IMG/VR virus record: IMGVR_UViG_3300025928_000005
Span: 32,001-96,000 of that record
Direction: 5' to 3' (one strand)
Length of the DNA: 64,000 nucleotides
Source of the DNA: a virus
A model generated the notes under the pieces. The model did not search any database. It saw only the letters and a program-made list of their open reading frames with translations, and was not told the origin of the DNA. Every line of letters begins with the position of its first letter. The stretch's first letter is position 1. Below are positions 2,135 through 36,312 of this stretch, piece after piece. A program made the position numbers and the translations under genes.

Positions 2135-5100
2135 CAGGCGCTCCCTCGACCGAAGAGGGACAGGCCGTTGGTGGGGTTTCGCAGGTTGTAGCGCAGCGTC
2201 TGGGTTTGGGTGAGCTCCCGCAGCTGCTTCTCCGCGATCACCGAACCCTGCACGTTGTTGTTGATGACGAGGATGCCGCCGCCCGCGCCGCCGGCGGCGA
2301 GGCCGGCGGCGCCGCTGGGCAGGCCGAGGCCGAGTGGCGTCGTGGCGCCGCTGAGACCCGCGGTGAGGGTTCCCTTGACGGCGCTGACGGCGGACGTGAT
2401 GAGGTGGGAGTTGCTGGTCATGCCGAGGGCGATGCCCTCCACGATGCCGATGCCGACGGTGTCGGCCATGACCTTGGACGGCGAGTTGATGCCGAGGGCG
2501 TCCATGAAGCCCTGCTTGACGGCGCTGGCGAAGTCGGCGATGTTGCTCATCAGCCAGTTCCAGCCGCTGGTGATGCCGGACCACAGGCCGTGCACGATGT
2601 CGGCACCGGCGCTGAGAAGCCAGCTGCCCGCCGACTGCATCGGGTTCTTCACCGCGTTCTTGACGCTGTTGCCGCCGCCGGCCATGATGTTGGCGATGTC
2701 CCCGATCTTGTGCATGATGCCGTCGATGAAGCCCTGCACGAGGTCGCGGGCAGTGTTCTCGAGCCAGTGGTACGCGTCGCTGACCCAGCCCCTGATCTGG
2801 TTGGGGAGGTTCTGCCACCAGTTCTTGAGGTCGGTGAGCTTCTGGGCGAGGCCGTTGATGAAGCCGTTGACCGTGTCCTTGCCGGTCGTCAGCATCCACA
2901 CGCCGGCGTCGGCGGCGGCCTTCTTGATCTCGTTTGGGAGCTGGGTCGTGAAGAAGTCGGTGATCGACTTGACCTTGCTGTTGATGCCCTGACCGAGGTT
3001 GAGCATGAGGTCGCTGCCCCACTTGAACGCCTCACCGGCCGCGTGGCCGAGCGCGTAGCCGATGATGGTGGGCATGTTCTTGAACAGGAAGCCGATGTCA
3101 TCCAGGGTGCTCTTGACCTTGTCCCTCAGGGCCTGCATGGCCGCGCTCCACGCGGTCTGGATGTCCTTCTTGAGCTGGTCGACTGCCGTGGTGAAGAAGC
3201 CGGGGACGCTGTTGATGATCCGACCGAGGGTGATGAAGCCGTCCTGCGCGTGCTGAGGCAGCTGAAGCAGCGGGGTGATGAGGTCGTTGGCCTTGGTCGT
3301 GAGGTTGACGAAGGACTTCGCGGCGACGTCGAGGCCACTCGCGGCGAGGTTGAGGATGGCCGAGCCGATCTTGGCCGTGGCGTTGACGAAGGGCTCGGCG
3401 TCCTTGACCAGCTCGGTCAGGTTCTTGATGATCGGGACGAGCGAGGGAAGCGCGTCCTCGAACGCCTTCGCGAGGTTGATGACGGGCGGGATGAGGTCCG
3501 GCAGGACCTTCGCGATCTCCTTGAGGATCTCGTTGGCGAGGTCGGTGAGCGGCGGCAGCAGCGGCGTGAGGCCGTCGAGCAGGTTCTGAAACGCCTGTCC
3601 GAGATCGTTGCCGAGCTCGTCGGCGATCTTCTGCACCGTGGGCAGCAGCGGCTCGAGCGCCCTCAGAAAGTCGTCGATGTAGGTGACGACGACGGCGAGC
3701 GGCGGCGCGATGATCTTGAGCGCGTCGACGAGCAGCGAGCCGATGACCTTGACGAGGTCGTTGAAGACGGCGGCGAGCGGCCCCATGACCGGCCTCAGCG
3801 CCTGGAACGCGTCACCGATGGTCTTGATGATGCCCTTGAAGGCCTCGCCGATGTCGGTGTTCTTCGCCATGTCCTGAAAGGCGGTGTTCAGCATCTTGAA
3901 CAGGTCGATCGCGGCCGGCATCATGACGTTGCCGATGCTGATCGCCGTGGTCTCGAGCTGGGCCTTGAACTGCGAGAACACGAAGCTGAGGTTGTTCTGC
4001 ACCTCGGAGAAGCCGACGACGTTGCCCTGGGCGTCGGCGGTCGCGCCGCCGACCTTCGCGATGGCGGCGCTGAGGGTGTCGGCGTCGCCGCTCGTGACCT
4101 CGAGCGCGGCCTGCAGGCCGGGGGACGTGCCGATCAGCTTCTTCATCGCCTCGGGGACGGTCTGCCCCACGGCGGCGGCGTTCTTCTCCGCGACCTGCCG
4201 CAGCCACTCGAGGGTGCCGGAGAGCCCGTCCGTGCCGAGGTGCTGCCGCACGTCATCGGTCGTGATGTTGAGCTCGCCGAACTCCTTCTTCATCTGGTTC
4301 GTGGGGGCGATGAGGCTCTTGATCGCGGCGGCGACGTCCTGGGCGGCGCGCTGGGCGGTCGTGCCCTTCGCGGTCATCGCGGCCTCGACCGTGGCCACGT
4401 CCTGGAAGCTGAGGCCCACCGATTGGGCGATGGGCAGGACCGTGGAGAGGGACTTCGAGAAGGCGTCGAAGTTGGTCTTGCCGAAGGAGATGGCGGTGAC
4501 CATCTTGCTGGTGATGTCGCCGGCCTGGTCCGCGGTGAGGTTGTAGTCCTTCATGACCGTGGTGACGGCGTCGGCGACGTGGGTCAGGTCGGCGCCCTCG
4601 TCCTTGGCGCCCTCCGCGGCGGCCTGCATGACCTTGAGGCCGTCCGCGGCGTGGTAGCCGGCGGACTCGATGGGGTACATCGCCGCGGCCAGCTGGTTCG
4701 CGGTGAAGCCGACCTTCGAGGACATGTCGAGCAGGCCCTGGCTGACCATGCCCGTCGCCTGCTGCGACTCGCCGGCGCTGGTGACGAGCCGGGTGACGGC
4801 GGCCTGGAAGTCGCCGGCCATCGTGAGGCTTCCGGCCGCGACCCCGGCGACGGCGATGCCGGTCTTCTCGGCGAGGCCCGCGATGGTGGCGCCGACGCCG
4901 TCGAGCAGGCCACTGGAGGCGGAGGCTCTCGACGCGGCGCCCTCGCTCGCGGCCGCCGCGGCGTCCTGGGAGGCCGCGGCGGCGTCGGCGGCGGCACCGA
5001 GGCGGTCGAAGGAGGCCGCGGCCTCGTCGGCGGCAACCGCGATCGCGGTCGCGGACTCCTCCATCGCGGCCGACGCCTCCGTCGCCGCGGACGCGATGGT

Positions 5101-31849: not shown

Positions 31850-32305
31850 TCAGAAGTTACCGTTCGATACCTGAAGGCAGGGGATCCCGACCACGTTTCG
31901 CCACAGGTCGACGACCTGGTTGCGGTCGTCGAAAGCGGCGATGACGTTGAACCTGGGCTGGATCAGAACGTAGAAGAGGTGCCGCTTCAGGTCGACATCC
32001 CTAGCGTAGCGCCACTCGTCGGTGTCGGGTCGCAGGTAGAGGCTGTGCTTCACGACCTCACGGCTCAGCCGACCGTGCAGGTGGGCCGTGATGAAGTCGG
32101 TGGTCGCGTCGTGGCAGACGACGTTGCGGCCGGACGCGAACACGAGCTCGTCGCCGACGTCGAGCAGGGCCCGCGCGACGGCGAGCACGGGCTCGTTGGG
32201 GAGGTCCTCGTGGACCCGGTCCCAGTCGTAGGGCCCGCGGCCGCCCGGGGCCCGCAGGGCCAGGGTGCCGTCGACGTCGAACAGCCAGGCTCGCCTTCTC
32301 GCCAC
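31850..32305 (-). CDS. HAD-family phosphatase, polynucleotide kinase 3'-phosphatase-like
   Basis: FDVDGTLA, SGR, K and FDDRNQVVDLWR..GIPCLQV, as in the T4 Pnk phosphatase domain. Confidence 0.85.
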   Translation of the reverse strand: MARRRAWLFDVDGTLALRAPGGRGPYDWDRVHEDLPNEPVLAVARALLDVGDELVFASGRNVVCHDATTDFITAHLHGRLSREVVKHSLYLRPDTDEWRYARDVDLKRHLFYVLIQPRFNVIAAFDDRNQVVDLWRNVVGIPCLQVSNGNF

Positions 32306-32551
32306 GTGTCTGCTCCGTTTCCTAGATACGACGATGGGGCCGGGTTGACCCGGCCCCACCATCTCTCCGCGCTCACATCCAAGGTGATGAGATTACTGTA
32401 CCACTGATGTATCGCCTCTACCAGCGACTCGCCCGGCGAAGCAGCCAGAGCCAGAAGCCGAGGCGGTGCCGTCGCCGGCGTCGTCGGCGCACCTCAGCCA
32501 CGACCTGGCAGCGCGGGAAGCTGCAGCCACCGGCGCACCAAACGGCGCACC

Positions 32552-34258
32552 TCAGCTCTCCCACGGCCAGCGCCCCGCCTGGCCGGCCTCGAGGGTCAAC
32601 GGCAGCCCGAACATGGCGTCGGTCAGGCCGCCAAGCTCGTGACGGTTGCTGCCCGGCGTGACCGGCATCATCGTGTTCTTGTAGCCGGCGAGGTTGAACG
32701 CGTAGATCGGCACGTTCCGCGGGGCAGCCGAGTCGACGTCACCCACCCCGTAGTTTCCCATCGTCTGACAGTCGGTCAGGATGATGACGCGGCTGTGCTC
32801 AGGCCGCAGCGTCTCGCGGACCGCCCTCGCGATCTCGGTGCCGCCGCCGGCGCTCCCCTGGTATCGCTTGAACGTTTCCACCGCCTTGAGCAGGCTCGTG
32901 CCTGGCTCGACACCGGTGACGTGGAACTGCGTGTTCGCGAAGCCCCACGCGTCGACGCCGGCCGGGTTCCGGATCTTCAGGGCGAGCCCGAAGAGCGCGG
33001 CCGCGGTCGAGTAGTCCATCTTGGAGTTTTCGGACAGCTTGCCCCAGGTCATCGACGCGGAGGTGTCGATGAGCACGAGGGTCCGGCCCGGCAGTACGGG
33101 CACGTTCGCCAGGGAGTGGTTCACGGCCTGCTCCAGGGCGTGGCCCCACCGCAGGGACGGGGCCTCGAGGTAGGCGTTGAGGAACCGGAACGGCAGCTGA
33201 CGGCTCTTCCGGATCTGCTCCGGGTCGGCGAGCCGCGTCAGGAGCGGTCCGATCACCGAGTCCGGGACGCCGGCCTGGTCGAGGCCGCGCAGGTTGCGCA
33301 GCAGGGCCATGTAGCCGAGCTTGGGCAGCGCGAGCTGCCAGATCTCGGCGTCGGTGACGGCGCGGCCCTCGCTCGGCTTCTCGCCGAGCCACGACTTGAG
33401 CCACTCCCACTGGCCGACCATCGCCCCGTGGATCAGGTCGAGGGCGACCTGGTCGTCCGCGAGGGCGCGGCGCGCGAGGTCGTGCCGCTCGCTGGGGGTC
33501 AGGCGCGCCATCGCCCACCGGACCCGGACGTGGGTCAGGGACTCGGGCGGCTCCGCCCCGTCGCGGCCGTGCCGGGCGGTGATCGCCCACCGGAACAGGT
33601 CGTCCTGCCAGGTGCGCTCCGCGCCGGGGGTGCGGACGTCGGCGTGGGTCAGCTCGAGGACGTCGCCGAACCGCAGGGCCTTGCCCTCACCGTCGTAGCG
33701 CAGGAACGCGGCCTCGTCGTAGAGGCGCGTGACGGCGTCGGCGACGCCGCGCTTGACCGGCTTCGGCAGCTTGACGACGATCGTGCCGTCGGGGCGGGTG
33801 ACGCCGAACCGGTGCCGCCAGTAGGCGAGGAGCTCGCCCGGCTCATCGGGGCGCTGCAGCACCGACGTGACCAGCTCGCGGTTGCCGTCACCGTGCAGGC
33901 CGGCGGTGAGCCGGGCGTGCACGGCCTCCGCGGCGAGCAGGATCGACGCGGTGCGGATGTTGCCCGGGCCGCGCAGCCACGAGAGGAAGACCCGCACCCA
34001 CGGCCACGTCTCCTCGTTGACGGCGAGCTGGGCCACGAGCTCCCGCAGGCGCTGCACGTTCTCGTCCGCGGTGTCGTAGAAGCCCCTCTCACCAGCGAAC
34101 CGCGAGACCGCCCGCCTGAAGAGCTCGGACTGCGCGTCGCTCTGGAAGCCGGGCGCGCCCTCGTGGGTGAGCCCGTCCGGGGTCGCGCTGAGCGTCCGCA
34201 GCGGGCCGCTCGCGGCCGCGCGCCGCGGTTGGGTCGATGCCTTGTTGAATCCTGCCAC
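32552..34258 (-). CDS. rsr: Ro60/Rsr TROVE-domain RNA-binding protein with C-terminal vWA domain
   Basis: WLRGPGNIRT, QRPDEPGELLAYW, LPKPVKRGVADA, YMALLRNLR, SRQLPFRFLNAY, MIDAS DTSASM, GGT and IILTD. GTG start at 34258 with GAGAGGA RBS. Confidence 0.93.
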   Translation of the reverse strand: MAGFNKASTQPRRAAASGPLRTLSATPDGLTHEGAPGFQSDAQSELFRRAVSRFAGERGFYDTADENVQRLRELVAQLAVNEETWPWVRVFLSWLRGPGNIRTASILLAAEAVHARLTAGLHGDGNRELVTSVLQRPDEPGELLAYWRHRFGVTRPDGTIVVKLPKPVKRGVADAVTRLYDEAAFLRYDGEGKALRFGDVLELTHADVRTPGAERTWQDDLFRWAITARHGRDGAEPPESLTHVRVRWAMARLTPSERHDLARRALADDQVALDLIHGAMVGQWEWLKSWLGEKPSEGRAVTDAEIWQLALPKLGYMALLRNLRGLDQAGVPDSVIGPLLTRLADPEQIRKSRQLPFRFLNAYLEAPSLRWGHALEQAVNHSLANVPVLPGRTLVLIDTSASMTWGKLSENSKMDYSTAAALFGLALKIRNPAGVDAWGFANTQFHVTGVEPGTSLLKAVETFKRYQGSAGGGTEIARAVRETLRPEHSRVIILTDCQTMGNYGVGDVDSAAPRNVPIYAFNLAGYKNTMMPVTPGSNRHELGGLTDAMFGLPLTLEAGQAGRWPWES

Positions 34259-34287
34259 GTTCCGGGTTCCTCTCAGCTTGAACGAGA

Positions 34288-34327
34288 ACGAGGCCCCCAC
34301 CAGCCGTTAAGCTGGTGGGGGCCTCGT
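34288..34327 (-). terminator. 17-bp hairpin between the RNA array and the Ro60 gene
   Basis: ACGAGGCCCCCACCAGC-N6-GCTGGTGGGGGCCTCGT. Confidence 0.6.
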
Positions 34328-34369
34328 GGTGGACGGTCTCAACCGCCTGCCTTGTCGGTTGAGACCGAG

Positions 34370-34443
34370 TTGCGGGGACGGGATTTGAACCCGTGACCAC
34401 TGGGTTATGAGCCCAGCGCGCTACCGAACTGCGCCACCCCGCT
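34370..34443 (-). tRNA. tRNA-Met(CAT), initiator-like
   Basis: Cloverleaf with CTGGG-CT CAT AA-CCCAG (three G:C pairs), 1:72 mismatch and TTCAAAT T loop; no CCA. Confidence 0.92.
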
Positions 34444-34446
34444 GCA

Positions 34447-34547
34447 CGTGAGCTGGACCGGGACGAGACCTGAGGTGACGGGCGGCGTCTGTTTGCAACC
34501 AATTTGCGAAGTAGCCGCTCGTCCGCGCACCGTCCCGGCCGCTCACG
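34447..34547 (-). ncRNA. short Y RNA-like gene (Y5), no tRNA elbow module
   Basis: Terminal stem, GGUGC, inner stem, UACUUC...GGUCUC, shared with four neighbours. Confidence 0.72.
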
Positions 34548-34550
34548 AGA

Positions 34551-34631
34551 TCACCACGAGACCTGGGACGACCTGGGGCGACTCTTCAAATTAGCAGTTT
34601 GATATAGCCCCTGGTCTTTGCACCGTGGCGA
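34551..34631 (-). ncRNA. short Y RNA-like gene (Y4) with anticodon-like hairpin
   Basis: GGUGC...UAUAUC...GGUCUC scaffold; apical UCAAA-CUGCUAA-UUUGA. Confidence 0.72.
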
Positions 34632-34650
34632 AGCCTGTGTGTAGTTGTGG

Positions 34651-34797
34651 GTCGACGCGAGACCAGGTGGCTGGCGGCGTGATCCTCGAAATGCTGCCGA
34701 TTACACCACGTCCCCGAGGGGACGGCGGGATTCGAACCCGCACCTCAACCTAATCAGGGTTGTGTGAAGTAGTCGCTGGCCGTCGCACCGCGTCGAT
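34651..34797 (-). ncRNA. YrlA-like Y RNA (Y3) with permuted tRNA module including an anticodon arm
   Basis: Shared scaffold; CAACC-CUGAUUA-GGUUG, T arm GCGGG-UUCGAAU-CCCGC, looped acceptor stem and D arm. Confidence 0.85.
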
Positions 34798-34805
34798 GAA
34801 GTTGT

Positions 34806-34887
34806 GGGAACCGACTGACCTGGGTTGCCCCGGCCCATAGGCTATGACCGCCGCGTCTGGTCTCACGCTCGGTTCTAGACGTGAGCC
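34806..34887 (-). ncRNA. unassigned structured RNA
   Basis: GAACCGA/UCGGUUC stem enclosing three hairpins, one with a GCAA tetraloop. Confidence 0.45.
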
Positions 34888-34896
34888 ACGTTGCAT

Positions 34897-35027
34897 CACC
34901 TCGAGACCTGAGCGTCGGTCGGGGTAGCCGCTTGGCCGCTGCGGCGAACGACCGGGGTTGAGACCGGTCGATGGGATTCGAACCCATGATTCTTGTGGAA
35001 GTACCCGCTCGACTTCGCACCGAGGTG
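34897..35027 (-). ncRNA. YrlA-like Y RNA (Y2)
   Basis: GGUGCGAAG...UACUUC, T arm AUGGG-UUCGAAU-CCCAU, acceptor-like CGACCGG/CCGGUCG, D-like arm and GGUCUC. Confidence 0.85.
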
Positions 35028-35034
35028 CCTTGCG

Positions 35035-35109
35035 TGGCTGCCGATGGACTTGAACCACCGACCCCCGCCTTATCAGGGCGGTGCTCTAACCTGTCTGAGC
35101 TAGACAGCC
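35035..35109 (-). tRNA. tRNA-Ile(GAT)
   Basis: Cloverleaf with CCGCC-CT GAT AA-GGCGG; no CCA. Confidence 0.93.
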
Positions 35110-35113
35110 GTAC

Positions 35114-35211
35114 GGTGAGATCCTACCACCGGGAGGGAGTCGAACCCGCTAGGTTGGTCGCGACACCAACCCGTCGTCCGGACGCGGAGTTGAACCGAGC
35201 CGGATCTCACC
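35114..35211 (-). ncRNA. unassigned RNA with two T-loop hairpins
   Basis: 10-bp closing stem GGUGAGAUCC/GGAUCUCACC; CGG-UUCAACU-CCG and GGG-UUCGACU-CCC. Confidence 0.65.
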
Positions 35212-35235
35212 TGAGCGACCTCGCGTAGTCGCCTG

Positions 35236-35307
35236 CGCCGGAGACGGGGATCGAACCCGCGACCTCTCCCTCGACAGGGGAGCGCTCTTCCATTGAGCTA
35301 CTCTGGC
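35236..35307 (-). tRNA. tRNA-Asp(GTC)
   Basis: Cloverleaf with CTCCC-CT GTC GA-GGGAG and G73; one acceptor mismatch. Confidence 0.9.
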
Positions 35308-35310
35308 TTA

Positions 35311-35383
35311 CGTGGTCCTCTGGCCGCTGAGGTACACCCCCTCGAAGTGGAGGTGAGGGGACTCGAACCCCCGACTTCCCACC
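35311..35383 (-). ncRNA. free circularly permuted tRNA-like RNA without anticodon loop
   Basis: GUGG, GAAGUC, T arm GGGGG-UUCGAGU-CCCCU, acceptor CACCUCC-loop-GGGGGUG, UA, D arm CCUC-AGCGGCCA-GAGG, A, CCAC. Confidence 0.75.
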
Positions 35384-35384
35384 G

Positions 35385-35458
35385 TGACTGCCGCTGGACT
35401 CGAACCAGCTACCTTCCGAGTTTCAACCGGACGCTCTCCCAGCTTGAGCTAGGCAGCC
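35385..35458 (-). tRNA. tRNA-Phe(GAA)
   Basis: Cloverleaf with TCCGG-TT GAA AC-TCGGA. Confidence 0.9.
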
Positions 35459-35460
35459 AA

Positions 35461-35570
35461 GCACACGGTGAACCATCGCCGATCCATCAGCATCGAACGC
35501 GATGTTCGATGCTTTTACCACGGACCAGGGACTCGAGTACTGCCCGTGGTGGGCTGACACCCGTGCGTGC
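35461..35570 (-). ncRNA. unassigned multibranched structured RNA
   Basis: Closing stem GCACGG/CCGUGU; inner ACCACGG/CCGUGGU and 10-bp AGCAUCGAAC/GUUCGAUGCU hairpins. Confidence 0.5.
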
Positions 35571-35579
35571 CTTCCCTTG

Positions 35580-35651
35580 TACCCCACGCCGGGATCGAAC
35601 CGGCGCCTTCCGCTTGAGGGGCGGAGGTGACTACCACTACACCAGTGGGGC
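35580..35651 (-). tRNA. tRNA-Glu(CTC)
   Basis: Cloverleaf with TCCGC-CC CTC AA-GCGGA (C33 instead of U33). Confidence 0.88.
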
Positions 35652-35653
35652 GT

Positions 35654-35814
35654 GAAACCTCACCGAGACCATTGAGCCTGCCCTCGGTTTTCTTTCTGAC
35701 TCTTGCTCTGCCAAGTTGAGCTACCCCACGACCGAGGTCGAGGGGACGGGACTTGAACCCGCAACCCAGAGTTCCGCTTGAAGTATCCGAGTGCGTTCGC
35801 ACCGGTGAGGCTTC
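35654..35814 (-). ncRNA. canonical-looking YrlA-like Y RNA (Y1)
   Basis: GGUGCGAAC...UACUUC, ACUCU/AGAGU connector stem, T arm GCGGG-UUCAAGU-CCCGU, looped acceptor, D arm GCUC-AACUUGGCA-GAGC and GGUCUC. Confidence 0.87.
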
Positions 35815-35880
35815 GTTGATCGCCGGTTGACGCCTGGTGGCCGGTCGTTCTGACTGCCGGGCTGAACCGGTGATGGTGAA

Positions 35881-35910
35881 ACCGTATCAGACAGCAACGA
35901 GCGTTGTCCA
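35881..35910 (-). promoter_or_regulatory. putative promoter of the RNA array/Ro60 operon (TGGACA-N18-TACGGT)
   Basis: In the AT-richer divergent intergenic region. Confidence 0.55.
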
Positions 35911-35934
35911 GGGTAAATCTCAACAACTTTGCTG

Positions 35935-35963
35935 TTTACATTCACCGCCCGTGCTGGTAGGGT
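35935..35963 (+). promoter_or_regulatory. promoter TTTACA-N17-TAGGGT
   Basis: Repeated phage promoter motif. Confidence 0.7.
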
Positions 35964-35994
35964 CGTACCAGGCAGGAACGAGCGAGGGAGTCAG

Positions 35995-36285
35995 ATGGGC
36001 AGGGACAAGCCGGCCTTCAAGAAGGCCGACGCGGTCACGAGCGCCAAGGACCGCACGCGGAACGGCGTCATCGTGGAGGTCCTCGGGGCCAACGAGAGGG
36101 GCGTGTTCCGCTACAAGGTGGTCTGGCCCGCCGACAGGATGCGCGAGACCGAGGAGCTGGAGACCGACCTGGTGCCGCTCAAGGGAGGCAGCGGCGGTCG
36201 TCGCCACGTCACCAACGTCTTCAAGGGCACCGTCCACGGCAAGCTGACCCAGTCGGGTGACGGTACCTTCCTCTTCGACGAGTAG
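35995..36285 (+). CDS. hypothetical protein (SH3-like)
   Basis: GAGGGAG RBS; first gene after the promoter. Confidence 0.65.
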   Translation: MGRDKPAFKKADAVTSAKDRTRNGVIVEVLGANERGVFRYKVVWPADRMRETEELETDLVPLKGGSGGRRHVTNVFKGTVHGKLTQSGDGTFLFDE

Positions 36286-36312
36286 CCCCCGAGCCAGGAA
36301 CGAGGAACTGAG

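What the first reader, a model, noticed from the sequence alone, without database searches (positions are those of the whole stretch)
34447..35814. Five Y RNA-like genes share one scaffold but carry different effector modules
Seen: elements at 34447-34547, 34551-34631, 34651-34797, 34897-35027 and 35654-35814 all read stem-GGUGC-N3/4-stem-UAYWUC-[variable]-stem-N-GGUCUC-stem. The stems differ in sequence but keep their pairing, which amounts to covariation within one genome. The variable parts are a classic YrlA tRNA elbow (Y1), a compact elbow (Y2), a full permuted tRNA (Y3) and short hairpins (Y4, Y5). Inference: a constant Ro60 handle with swappable RNA cargo, making a modular RNP family.
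Basis: partly seen in the sequence, partly recalled or inferred. Interest (0 to 1): 0.9.

Follow-up and report, generated by a model that had tools for sequence, protein, structure and literature searches.

The report
Phage Ro60 Y RNA gene array
An uncultured actinomycete phage carries five small RNA genes, mixed in with tRNA genes just upstream of its Ro60 gene, that are real relatives of the known bacterial Y RNAs; the family is known, but an array this large and varied has not been annotated.

Summary
Five minus-strand elements share a closing stem, GGUGC, an inner stem, UAYWUC, a variable module, the inner-stem return, GGUCUC and the closing-stem return. The 5' motif occurs 5 times in this 1.4-kb cluster and once elsewhere in the window, against 0.41 expected for the whole window.

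A covariance model built on the scaffold hits only this cluster in the 111-kb phage genome. Stem covariation is strong: 89-92% of cells pair, against 62-73% in shuffles and 26-48% in slid controls.

The array lies directly upstream of a TROVE/Ro60 gene on the same strand. It is conserved in six related viral contigs carrying 4-7 copies, and in cultured Gordonia and Streptomyces phages.

The same scaffold sits upstream of cellular Ro60 genes in actinomycetes. By motif and stem criteria 74 of 80 loci have it, with 1-5 copies. In a sample of 151 genomes it was found only beside TROVE genes.

These are therefore actinobacterial-type Y RNAs (YrlA/YrlB kind; Chen 2014). The "constant handle, different module" idea is the established Y RNA model, and Ro60 binding is untested here. 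I file it as a new member of a known kind, of moderate interest. Other first-stage notes of this scan cover this same stretch.

The parts
35881..35910 (-). Promoter-like site for the RNA array: -35 TGGACA (35910-35905), 18-nt spacer, -10 TACGGT (35886-35881)
   Evidence: The block is conserved upstream of the first Y element in four phage clades (alignment A6). The hexamers were read by eye against the actinobacterial TTGACA/TANNNT consensus. The sigma-70 scan with the E. coli consensus found nothing. Inferred.
35654..35814 (-). Y1: scaffold plus classic YrlA tRNA-like domain (T arm, closed acceptor-like stem, D arm, open anticodon-type stem)
   Evidence: Rfam YrlA 37.8 bits, E 4e-6, model positions 1-114. 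Fold. Scaffold. R1 gives only 19 bits because of the long insert. Orthologs are present in L003, L006, L134 and G001.
35579..35651 (-). tRNA-Glu(CUC); it starts 2 nt after the end of Y1
   Evidence: ARAGORN and Rfam
35384..35458 (-). tRNA-Phe(GAA)
35235..35307 (-). tRNA-Asp(GUC)
35034..35109 (-). tRNA-Ile(GAU); it ends 7 nt before Y2
34897..35027 (-). Y2: scaffold plus compact tRNA elbow (small hairpin, T arm, 7-bp acceptor-like hairpin, D-like hairpin)
   Evidence: R1 46 bits, E 6e-9. Centroid fold. Ortholog consensus structure with compensatory changes. Same class as the roughly 100-nt elements of cellular loci.
34651..34797 (-). Y3: scaffold plus a complete circularly permuted tRNA-like domain with a closed anticodon-type hairpin (loop CUGAUUA)
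   Evidence: R1 45 bits, E 1e-8. Partial Rfam YrlA and tRNA hits, 21.9 and 23.7 bits. Hairpin scan. Ortholog consensus fold of 6 sequences.
34551..34631 (-). Y4: scaffold plus one 5-bp hairpin with the 7-nt loop CUGCUAA
   Evidence: R1 71 bits, E 3e-15. Fold z -3.5. Hairpin.
34447..34547 (-). Y5: scaffold with an extended closing stem plus a small 4-bp hairpin
   Evidence: R1 86 bits, E 5e-19. Fold z -4.2.
34369..34443 (-). tRNA-Met(CAU), the last gene of the array; a tRNA-Met also ends the array in L002, L003, L004, L006 and L134
34288..34368 (-). Two GC-rich hairpins between the array and the Ro60 start codon, possibly an attenuator or processing site
   Evidence: Sequence. Hairpins at the same place but with different sequence occur in L002, L003 and L006. 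The terminator scan did not call them.
32552..34258 (-). Ro60 (TROVE plus vWA) gene, 568 aa; the start is the GTG at 34258
   Evidence: Pfam TROVE E 4.5e-13. PHROG 850 RNA-binding protein E 4e-32. PDB phiLo Ro60 9L5Y/9KOP E 3.6e-17 and D. radiodurans Rsr 2NVO E 1e-7. The start was chosen from the conserved N terminus in relatives.
31850..32362 (-). Polynucleotide kinase-phosphatase, phosphatase domain only, directly downstream of Ro60
   Evidence: Pfam HAD_PNKP E 2e-36. PHROG 505 polynucleotide kinase E 3e-36.

Best explanation
The five elements are paralogous Y RNAs of the actinobacterial YrlA/YrlB type and are the RNA partners of the phage Ro60 encoded 190 nt downstream.

They are most likely transcribed with five tRNAs as one precursor, from a promoter near 35,900. 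Processing at the tRNA ends would help free them, since Y1 and Y5 lie 2-3 nt from a tRNA 5' end and Y2 lies 7 nt after a tRNA 3' end. Each mature RNA has a constant part: closing stem, the GGUGC/GGUCUC segment, an internal loop, and an inner stem with a conserved mismatch. That part is the Ro60 binding site.

The apical modules differ:
- a whole L-shaped tRNA mimic with an open anticodon-type stem (Y1);
- an elbow-only mimic (Y2);
- a whole tRNA mimic with a closed anticodon-type stem (Y3);
- a bare 7-nt-loop hairpin (Y4);
- a small hairpin (Y5).

By analogy with D. radiodurans, Salmonella and Thermus phage phiLo, the modules would tether Ro60 to different partners, such as PNPase or tRNA-binding enzymes, or gate its cavity. 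That would give the phage several Ro60 RNPs for RNA surveillance or decay during infection.

Shown here: scaffold, covariation, exclusive linkage to Ro60 genes, conservation, module anatomy.
Inferred: co-transcription, processing, Ro60 binding, partner recruitment.
For: - Linkage: the TROVE/Ro60 gene is on the same strand directly downstream.
- Specificity in the phage: the 5' motif occurs 5 times in the cluster and once elsewhere in the window, against 0.41 expected for the window. Model R1 hits only the cluster in the window and in the 111-kb genome.
- Covariation: on 11 seed sequences 92% of cells pair, 14 of 21 pairs change on both sides, and 0 of 500 shuffles reach this. On 32 matches 89% pair against 62% shuffled, with 146 double-change cells against 43; slid controls give 35-47%.
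- Conservation: related viral contigs with Ro60 at 48-94% identity keep the array upstream of Ro60 with 4-7 copies.
- Cultured phages have 2-3 copies upstream of their Ro-like genes: Gordonia VanLee and Neville, Streptomyces Quantum, BRock and pSt2308.
- Cellular loci: 139 R1 hits in 80 actinomycete Ro60 loci, all but one upstream on the Ro60 strand.
- Whole genomes: in 4 genomes the only hits are at Ro60 loci. In 151 genomes all 9 hits lie within 1.3 kb upstream of a TROVE gene, and 0 of 135 TROVE-less genomes are hit.
- Y1 aligns over the full Rfam YrlA model.
- The published probe sequences for the Rsr-bound M. smegmatis YrlA and YrlB match the corresponding element classes at 18 of 23 and 19 of 25 positions (PMC4201824).
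- Modules are conserved as structures among orthologs.
- Literature: YrlA lies within 4 kb of Ro60 on the same strand in 254 bacteria and 22 phages, with at least 2 Y RNAs per studied species, processed from one precursor in M. smegmatis (PMC4201824). Phage phiLo Ro60 binds two upstream Y-like RNAs and forms a complex with host PNPase (PMC12135203).
Against: - There are no expression, processing or binding data for this uncultured phage.
- Y1 is below the Rfam YrlA gathering score (37.8 against 69), and Rfam at gathering score finds none of the actinobacterial or phage elements.
- The published Rsr motif GNCGAAN0-1G is matched only approximately. GGUGCGAAG occurs in Y2 and GGUGCGAAC in Y1, while Y3-Y5 have GCGAC, GCAAA and GCGCG. 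Rfam aligns that motif to a different stretch of Y1. Which nucleotides contact Ro60 is therefore open.
- Two strong hairpins lie between the array and Ro60, so the stoichiometry and co-transcription are uncertain.
- The covariation alignments were fitted to the model and contain related sequences, so the shuffle counts are not probabilities.
Confidence: 0.85

Rival explanations
1. The repeated scaffolds act mainly in cis. They would be Ro60 binding sites in the long leader of the Ro60 mRNA, letting the protein autoregulate its own synthesis or transcript stability. They would not be stable trans-acting Y RNAs.
For: All copies lie upstream of Ro60 on the same strand, with only about 30 nt between the last hairpin and the start codon. 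Ro60 therefore probably depends on read-through from the array promoter. The same upstream position holds in the 80 cellular loci.
Against: In M. smegmatis the upstream RNAs accumulate as discrete Rsr-bound species processed from the precursor (PMC4201824). Here the elements are separated by tRNAs that must be excised, which cuts the leader apart. The elaborate conserved tRNA-like modules have no role in simple autoregulation. The two roles are not exclusive.
Confidence: 0.08
2. The elements work chiefly as tRNA-part decoys or sponges against host enzymes that target tRNA, such as anticodon nucleases, toxins or modification enzymes. On this reading the scaffold serves mainly as a stabilising or processing handle, and Ro60 acts as protector rather than effector.
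For: The modules are tRNA parts: a whole L-shape, an elbow, and a 7-nt-loop hairpin. In Y3 and Y4 orthologs the loop keeps C-U...A-A while the middle triplet changes: GAU, CGU, CGC and GCU, CUU, GUU. Among cellular homologs 59 of 175 have CU-NNN-AA loops, with 18 different triplets. The array is embedded in phage tRNA genes and is followed by an RNA end-healing phosphatase domain.
Against: No nuclease, ligase (RtcB) or CCA-adding enzyme was found in the phage. The same modules occur in cellular Ro60 loci, where anti-defence is not the obvious role. The loop signature could reflect any loop-binding protein, and the counts are not phylogenetically independent.
Confidence: 0.06
3. The elements are decaying tRNA duplicates or pseudogenes in a tRNA island, and their apparent common scaffold is accidental.
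For: They sit among tRNA genes and contain T-arm and D-arm sequences.
Against: Y4 and Y5 have no T or D arm yet carry the best scaffold matches (71-86 bits). The stems covary. Orthologs persist down to 48% Ro60 identity and in bacteria, always next to Ro60.
Confidence: 0.01

Closest known systems
Bacterial Y RNAs YrlA and YrlB (Rfam RF02553 for YrlA; Chen et al. 2014, PMC4201824), especially the Mycobacterium smegmatis pair
   Same: - They are encoded just upstream of Ro60/Rsr on the same strand, with several per locus.
- One has a T arm, an acceptor-like stem and a D arm; another has only a T arm or a plain hairpin.
- There is a conserved 5' motif close to GNCGAAN0-1G and a YUAY element before the V stem-loop.
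- They are processed from a common precursor.
- Y1 aligns along the whole Rfam model.
- The M. smegmatis probe sequences match the corresponding element classes.
   Different: - There are five copies here, and seven in a related contig, against two described.
- They are interleaved with five tRNA genes.
- All score below the Rfam gathering score.
- Y3 has a closed 5-bp hairpin with a 7-nt loop placed as an anticodon arm would be. The 2014 paper describes a stem-loop at this position as a variable arm (V).
Thermus phage phiLo Ro60 with Yrl1 and Yrl2 (PMC12135203; PDB 9L5Y, 9KOP)
   Same: A phage-encoded Ro60 with Y-like RNAs directly upstream. The proteins are related by sequence (E 3.6e-17).
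   Different: phiLo has two RNAs, defined by a CGAA motif and a stem-bulge-stem. The searched text of that paper does not mention 'tRNA-like' or YrlA, and no array with tRNAs is described in the passages read. Ro60 identity to the protein here is about 25%.
Metazoan Y RNAs (hY1, hY3, hY4, hY5)
   Same: A small family of paralogs sharing a Ro60-binding terminal stem and differing in the apical loop. The 5' strand motif is GGUCCGA there and GGUGCGA here (motif as quoted in PMC4201824).
   Different: The window has no Rfam Y_RNA hit, even at E 10. The apical parts here are tRNA-like. The genes are co-linear with Ro60 and tRNAs instead of being separate Pol III genes.
Deinococcus radiodurans Yrn1/Yrn2 and the Ro60-Y RNA-PNPase (RYPER) machine
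   Same: Several Y RNAs lie upstream of rsr next to a tRNA gene, and the Y RNA acts as a tether between Ro60 and an effector (PMC4201824).
   Different: Yrn1 has a different arm order and evolved independently according to that paper. A PNPase link is not testable here.

Membership tests
Bacterial Y RNA, YrlA/YrlB type (criteria of Chen et al. 2014) | Encoded within 4 kb of a Ro60 ortholog and on the same DNA strand | tested here: met
   The five elements lie 190-1,560 nt upstream of the TROVE gene (34258..32552), all on the minus strand.
Bacterial Y RNA, YrlA/YrlB type (criteria of Chen et al. 2014) | At least one RNA of the locus has a tRNA-like domain (T arm, acceptor-like stem-loop, D arm) | tested here: met
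   Y1 shows this in a full-length YrlA alignment. Y3 shows it in partial YrlA and tRNA hits and in the ortholog fold. Y2 has a T arm plus two hairpins.
Bacterial Y RNA, YrlA/YrlB type (criteria of Chen et al. 2014) | Short 5' motif GNCGAAN0-1G thought to contact Ro60 | tested here: inconclusive
   Y2 reads GGUGCGAAG and Y1 GGUGCGAAC, one base off the motif. Y3-Y5 read GCGAC, GCAAA and GCGCG. Rfam aligns the motif to CUCGGAUAC in Y1 instead.
Bacterial Y RNA, YrlA/YrlB type (criteria of Chen et al. 2014) | Bound by, and stabilised by, the Ro60 protein | not testable with these tools
   This needs immunoprecipitation or EMSA. The indirect support is that the scaffold is found only beside TROVE genes.
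Rfam RF02553 YrlA | Score at or above the curated gathering score (69 bits) | tested here: not met
   The best score is Y1 at 37.8 bits, and Y3 gives 21.9 bits. No actinobacterial or phage element reaches the gathering score in 13 loci.
Actinobacterial Ro60-linked scaffold (model R1, defined here) | Closing stem, GGUGC, inner stem, UACUUC ... inner stem, GRYCUC, closing stem, with covarying stems | tested here: met
   Window hits score 86, 71, 46, 45 and 19 bits. Homologs occur upstream of Ro60 in 74 of 80 actinomycete loci. Caveat: two of the five were in the seed alignment.
tRNA (RF00005) | Cloverleaf in normal order, scoring at or above 29 bits or called by ARAGORN | tested here: not met
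   ARAGORN calls only the five true tRNAs. Y3 scores 23.7 bits.
Metazoan Y RNA (RF00019) | Match to the Rfam model | tested here: not met
   No hit in 33800-36300, even at E up to 10.

The most novel reading that the evidence does not exclude
Actinobacterial and actinophage Ro60 loci encode a display set of tRNA parts on one Ro60 handle: a whole L-shape, an elbow only, and an anticodon stem-loop only. The anticodon-position triplet drifts freely between close relatives while C32-U33 and A37-A38 stay fixed. The phage has enlarged this set to 5-7 members. It would use the resulting RNPs as decoys, sensors or adaptors for tRNA-targeting host enzymes during infection, which would be a role for Y RNAs that has not been described.
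Probability: 0.15. Interest if true: 0.8.

Novelty: new member of a known kind. Interest (0 to 1): 0.5.

Why it matters
Ro60 and Y RNAs are conserved from bacteria to humans, and Ro60 is a major lupus and Sjogren autoantigen, yet what bacterial and phage Y RNAs do is still largely open.

This locus and its relatives show that phages of actinomycetes carry the largest Y RNA sets seen in this analysis (5-7), each with a different tRNA-derived module. They also show that one compact scaffold model finds unannotated Y RNAs next to Ro60 genes across actinomycetes and their phages, where the Rfam model at its gathering score finds none.

That gives a ready set of natural handle-plus-module variants for binding and pull-down experiments. 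It also allows genome annotations to be corrected: in Gordonia phage Neville, small hypothetical ORFs overlie these RNAs.

Tried and rejected
- A collection scan with the three-motif DNA pattern returned mostly chance hits. Only 1 of 118 stretches (L070) passed the closing-stem test.
- Megablast of the region against GenBank phages found only a 57-nt tRNA-Ile match.
It came from numbering by coordinate instead of by transcription order (corrected).
- The E. coli-type promoter and terminator scan was uninformative.
- A search for RtcB and a CCA-adding enzyme in the phage was negative, so an Rtc-like repair operon context is not supported beyond the phosphatase domain.
- The review PMC10870794 is not held, and the supplements of Chen 2014 are not held. 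I could not check whether arrays of three or more Y RNAs in actinomycetes are tabulated there.
- Pseudogene, chance-repeat and plain-tRNA readings were rejected on covariation, Ro60 linkage and ARAGORN/Rfam scores.
Full report
**Where it is.** The window is part of a 111,341-bp IMG/VR viral contig that CheckV rates as complete. It has high G+C and no near relative in GenBank phages. Its large terminase is at most 42% identical to any cultured phage. All features discussed lie on the minus strand.

Read 5' to 3' on that strand, the order is as follows.
- A promoter-like site.
- Y1 (35814-35654), then tRNA-Glu.
- A structured spacer, then tRNA-Phe.
- A handle-less tRNA-like RNA, then tRNA-Asp.
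- An RNA with two T-loops, then tRNA-Ile.
- Y2 (35027-34897), then a 100-nt spacer.
- Y3 (34797-34651), Y4 (34631-34551) and Y5 (34547-34447).
- tRNA-Met, then two GC-rich hairpins.
- A TROVE/Ro60 gene (34258-32552), then a polynucleotide-kinase phosphatase domain (32362-31850).

The Ro60 protein matches Pfam TROVE (E 4.5e-13). It matches the solved phage phiLo Ro60 (E 3.6e-17) and D. radiodurans Rsr (E 1e-7).

**The observation.** It holds. With it, every module description is right.

GGTGC-N8-22-TAYWTC occurs 6 times in 64 kb. Five of those are in this 1.4-kb cluster and all are on one strand, against 0.41 expected. GGTCTC alone is not enriched.

For each element the bases before GGUGC pair with those after the matching GGUCUC, and the five stems have five different sequences. 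The inner stem forms in all five with a mismatch at the same position, though it is weak in Y3. Single-sequence folds beat nearly all shuffles for four of the five, with Y3 the exception.

**Comparative evidence from phages.** Searching viral contigs with the Ro60 protein gave six related contigs at 48-94% amino-acid identity. Every contig with upstream sequence has the same arrangement.
- Four to five scaffold elements occur in L002, L003/L004 and L006.
- Seven occur in L134, where the 3' motif reads GAYCUC.
- At least five occur in G001, with some GAUGC and GGUCAC variants.

Orthologs show compensatory changes. One example is the Y3 closing stem, UCGACGC/GCGUCGA against UCGUCGC/GCGACGA.

**The covariance model.** I aligned 11 short elements (A2) and wrote the two-helix structure. 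92% of cells pair, against 73% in shuffles and 26-48% when the partner is slid. 14 of 21 pairs change on both sides, and 0 of 500 shuffles reach this.

The model built from it (R1) finds only the five elements in the window, with the next best hit at E 0.81. It finds only this cluster in the whole phage genome.

On all 32 matches in phage loci, 89% of cells pair against 62% shuffled. There are 146 double-change cells against 43, and slid controls give 35-47%. These alignments are fitted to the model and the sequences are related, so the numbers are strong support rather than probabilities.

**Beyond this phage group.** The phage Ro60 is closer to cellular Rsr of Streptosporangiales and other actinomycetes (about 49% identity) than to Ro-like proteins of cultured actinophages (35-39%).

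- In 80 cellular Ro60 loci, R1 gives 139 hits at E <= 0.1. All but one lie within about 700 nt upstream on the Ro60 strand.
- By motif plus stem criteria, 74 of 80 loci have at least one element. The mode is three and the maximum is five.
- Whole-genome searches of four actinomycete genomes hit only the Ro60 loci.
- In an even sample of 151 genomes of the class, 7 had R1 hits. All 7 are among the 16 genomes with a TROVE gene.
- All 9 of those hits lie within 1.3 kb upstream of a TROVE match on the same strand. None of the 135 TROVE-less genomes had a hit.
- Cultured phages carry 2-3 elements upstream of their Ro-like genes: Gordonia VanLee and Neville, Streptomyces Quantum, BRock and pSt2308.
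- In those phages the elements lie in unannotated gaps or under small hypothetical ORFs.

The scaffold is therefore a Ro60-linked RNA element of actinomycetes and their phages.

**Relation to published Y RNAs.** Chen et al. 2014 (PMC4201824) reported the following.
- YrlA-like RNAs within 4 kb of Ro60 on the same strand, in 254 bacteria and 22 phages.
- At least two Y RNAs per studied species.
- A 5' motif GNCGAAN0-1G resembling metazoan GGUCCGA.
- A conserved YUAY that begins a "V" stem-loop before the T arm.
- In M. smegmatis, a YrlA and a YrlB with a T arm, processed from one precursor upstream of Rsr.

The elements here fit that picture.
- Y1 aligns over the full Rfam YrlA model, at 37.8 bits against a gathering score of 69.
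- GGUGCGAAG is one base from both motifs.
- UAC of UACUUC corresponds to YUAY.
- The published M. smegmatis probe sequences match the long class and the compact T-arm class of cellular elements at 18 of 23 and 19 of 25 positions.

Rfam at its gathering score finds none of these RNAs, even in cellular loci. Standard annotation therefore misses them. Phage phiLo Ro60 binds two upstream Y-like RNAs and forms a complex with host PNPase (PMC12135203).

**The modules.** They are not unique to the phage.
- Cellular arrays contain short elements of about 60 nt and compact T-arm elements of about 100 nt.
- They also contain two kinds of long element of about 125 nt. In one kind the tRNA-like domain is closed by strands from both sides, as in Y1. 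In the other a separate 5-bp hairpin with a 7-nt loop sits 4-6 nt before the T arm, as in Y3.
- Each phage module type is kept as an orthologous structure across clades.

The data therefore show an old, stable set of paralogs rather than recent module swapping.

One side result concerns the hairpin that follows UAC. It carries a CU-NNN-AA loop in 59 of 175 cellular elements, with 18 different middle triplets. In Y3 and Y4 orthologs the flanks stay while the triplet changes. This looks like an anticodon-arm mimic. The 2014 paper drew this stem-loop as a variable arm.

**Mechanism.**
- A block with -35 TGGACA, an 18-nt spacer and -10 TACGGT is conserved upstream of the first element in four clades.
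- Y1 and Y5 lie 2-3 nt from a tRNA 5' end, and Y2 lies 7 nt after a tRNA 3' end. Only about 30 nt separate the last hairpin from the Ro60 start codon.
- The most likely picture is one precursor, cut by the tRNA-processing enzymes into five tRNAs, five Y RNAs and a few other small RNAs.
- Some read-through would then make Ro60 and the phosphatase.
- Binding of Ro60 to the constant part, and recruitment of different partners by the modules, follow from the family's known biology. They are not shown here.
- No RtcB or CCA-adding enzyme is encoded in the phage.

**Verdict.** What is new is modest:
- the size of the set (5-7);
- its interleaving with tRNAs;
- the breadth of unannotated homologs that the scaffold model reveals;
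- the anticodon-loop-like signature.

Noticed in passing
window 35311-35383 (-); L006 3878-3955: A stand-alone circularly permuted tRNA-like RNA lies between tRNA-Phe and tRNA-Asp. It has a T arm, a closed acceptor stem and a D arm, but no Ro60 scaffold. It gives a partial YrlA hit of 25.5 bits. The L006 copy has a compensatory change in the short closing stem (CGGUGG/CCACG to CGGCGG/CCGCG). It is absent from L003 and L004.
   Followed up: partly
window 35114-35234 (-); L003 about 3838-3955; L006 about 4040-4175: An RNA of about 100 nt is closed by a perfect 10-bp stem and holds two T-arm-like hairpins. It ends with a conserved CCUGGUGGUA-like stretch. It is present in three clades with a different closing-stem sequence each time. 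No Rfam hit.
   Followed up: partly
window 35459-35578 (-): There is a structured spacer between tRNA-Glu and tRNA-Phe. The outer stem GCACGA...AUCGUGC is present in L003 and L006 (GCACGC...GUGUGC in the window), and the inside is variable. Unknown kind.
   Followed up: no
window 34798-34896 (-): A 100-nt hairpin-rich insert lies between Y2 and Y3. It is present only in the window and in L002. L003 and L006 have about 12 nt there.
   Followed up: no
window 34369-34443 (-): The tRNA-Met next to Ro60 has initiator hallmarks: a mismatch at pair 1:72 (A/A) and three consecutive G-C pairs at the base of the anticodon stem. A tRNA-Met occupies this last position of the array in the five related contigs where it was checked (L002, L003, L004, L006, L134).
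   Followed up: partly
L139-L218 (80 actinomycete Ro60 loci), about 300-700 nt upstream of Ro60: Cellular Ro60 genes of actinomycetes are preceded by 1-5 scaffold elements. In 59 of 175 of these, the hairpin after UAC has a 7-nt loop CU-NNN-AA, with 18 different middle triplets. Short elements consist of the handle plus this hairpin only.
   Followed up: partly
L219 (Gordonia phage Neville NC_060131.1) 1987-2457: Three scaffold elements (E 3e-7 to 2e-4) overlap the annotated hypothetical genes gp88, gp89 and gp90 and the annotated start of the Ro-like gene. These ORF calls are probably wrong.
   Followed up: partly
window 35934-35962 (+): A divergent promoter-like site serves the plus-strand gene that starts at 35997: TTTACA, 17 nt, TAGGGT. 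It lies inside a block conserved in L003 and L006 (TTGTAAACA...GTTGTTGAGA on the minus strand).
   Followed up: no
G098:C1:1359685-1360904 and 2253362-2254664: One actinomycete genome has two separate TROVE genes, each with its own upstream scaffold element.
   Followed up: no
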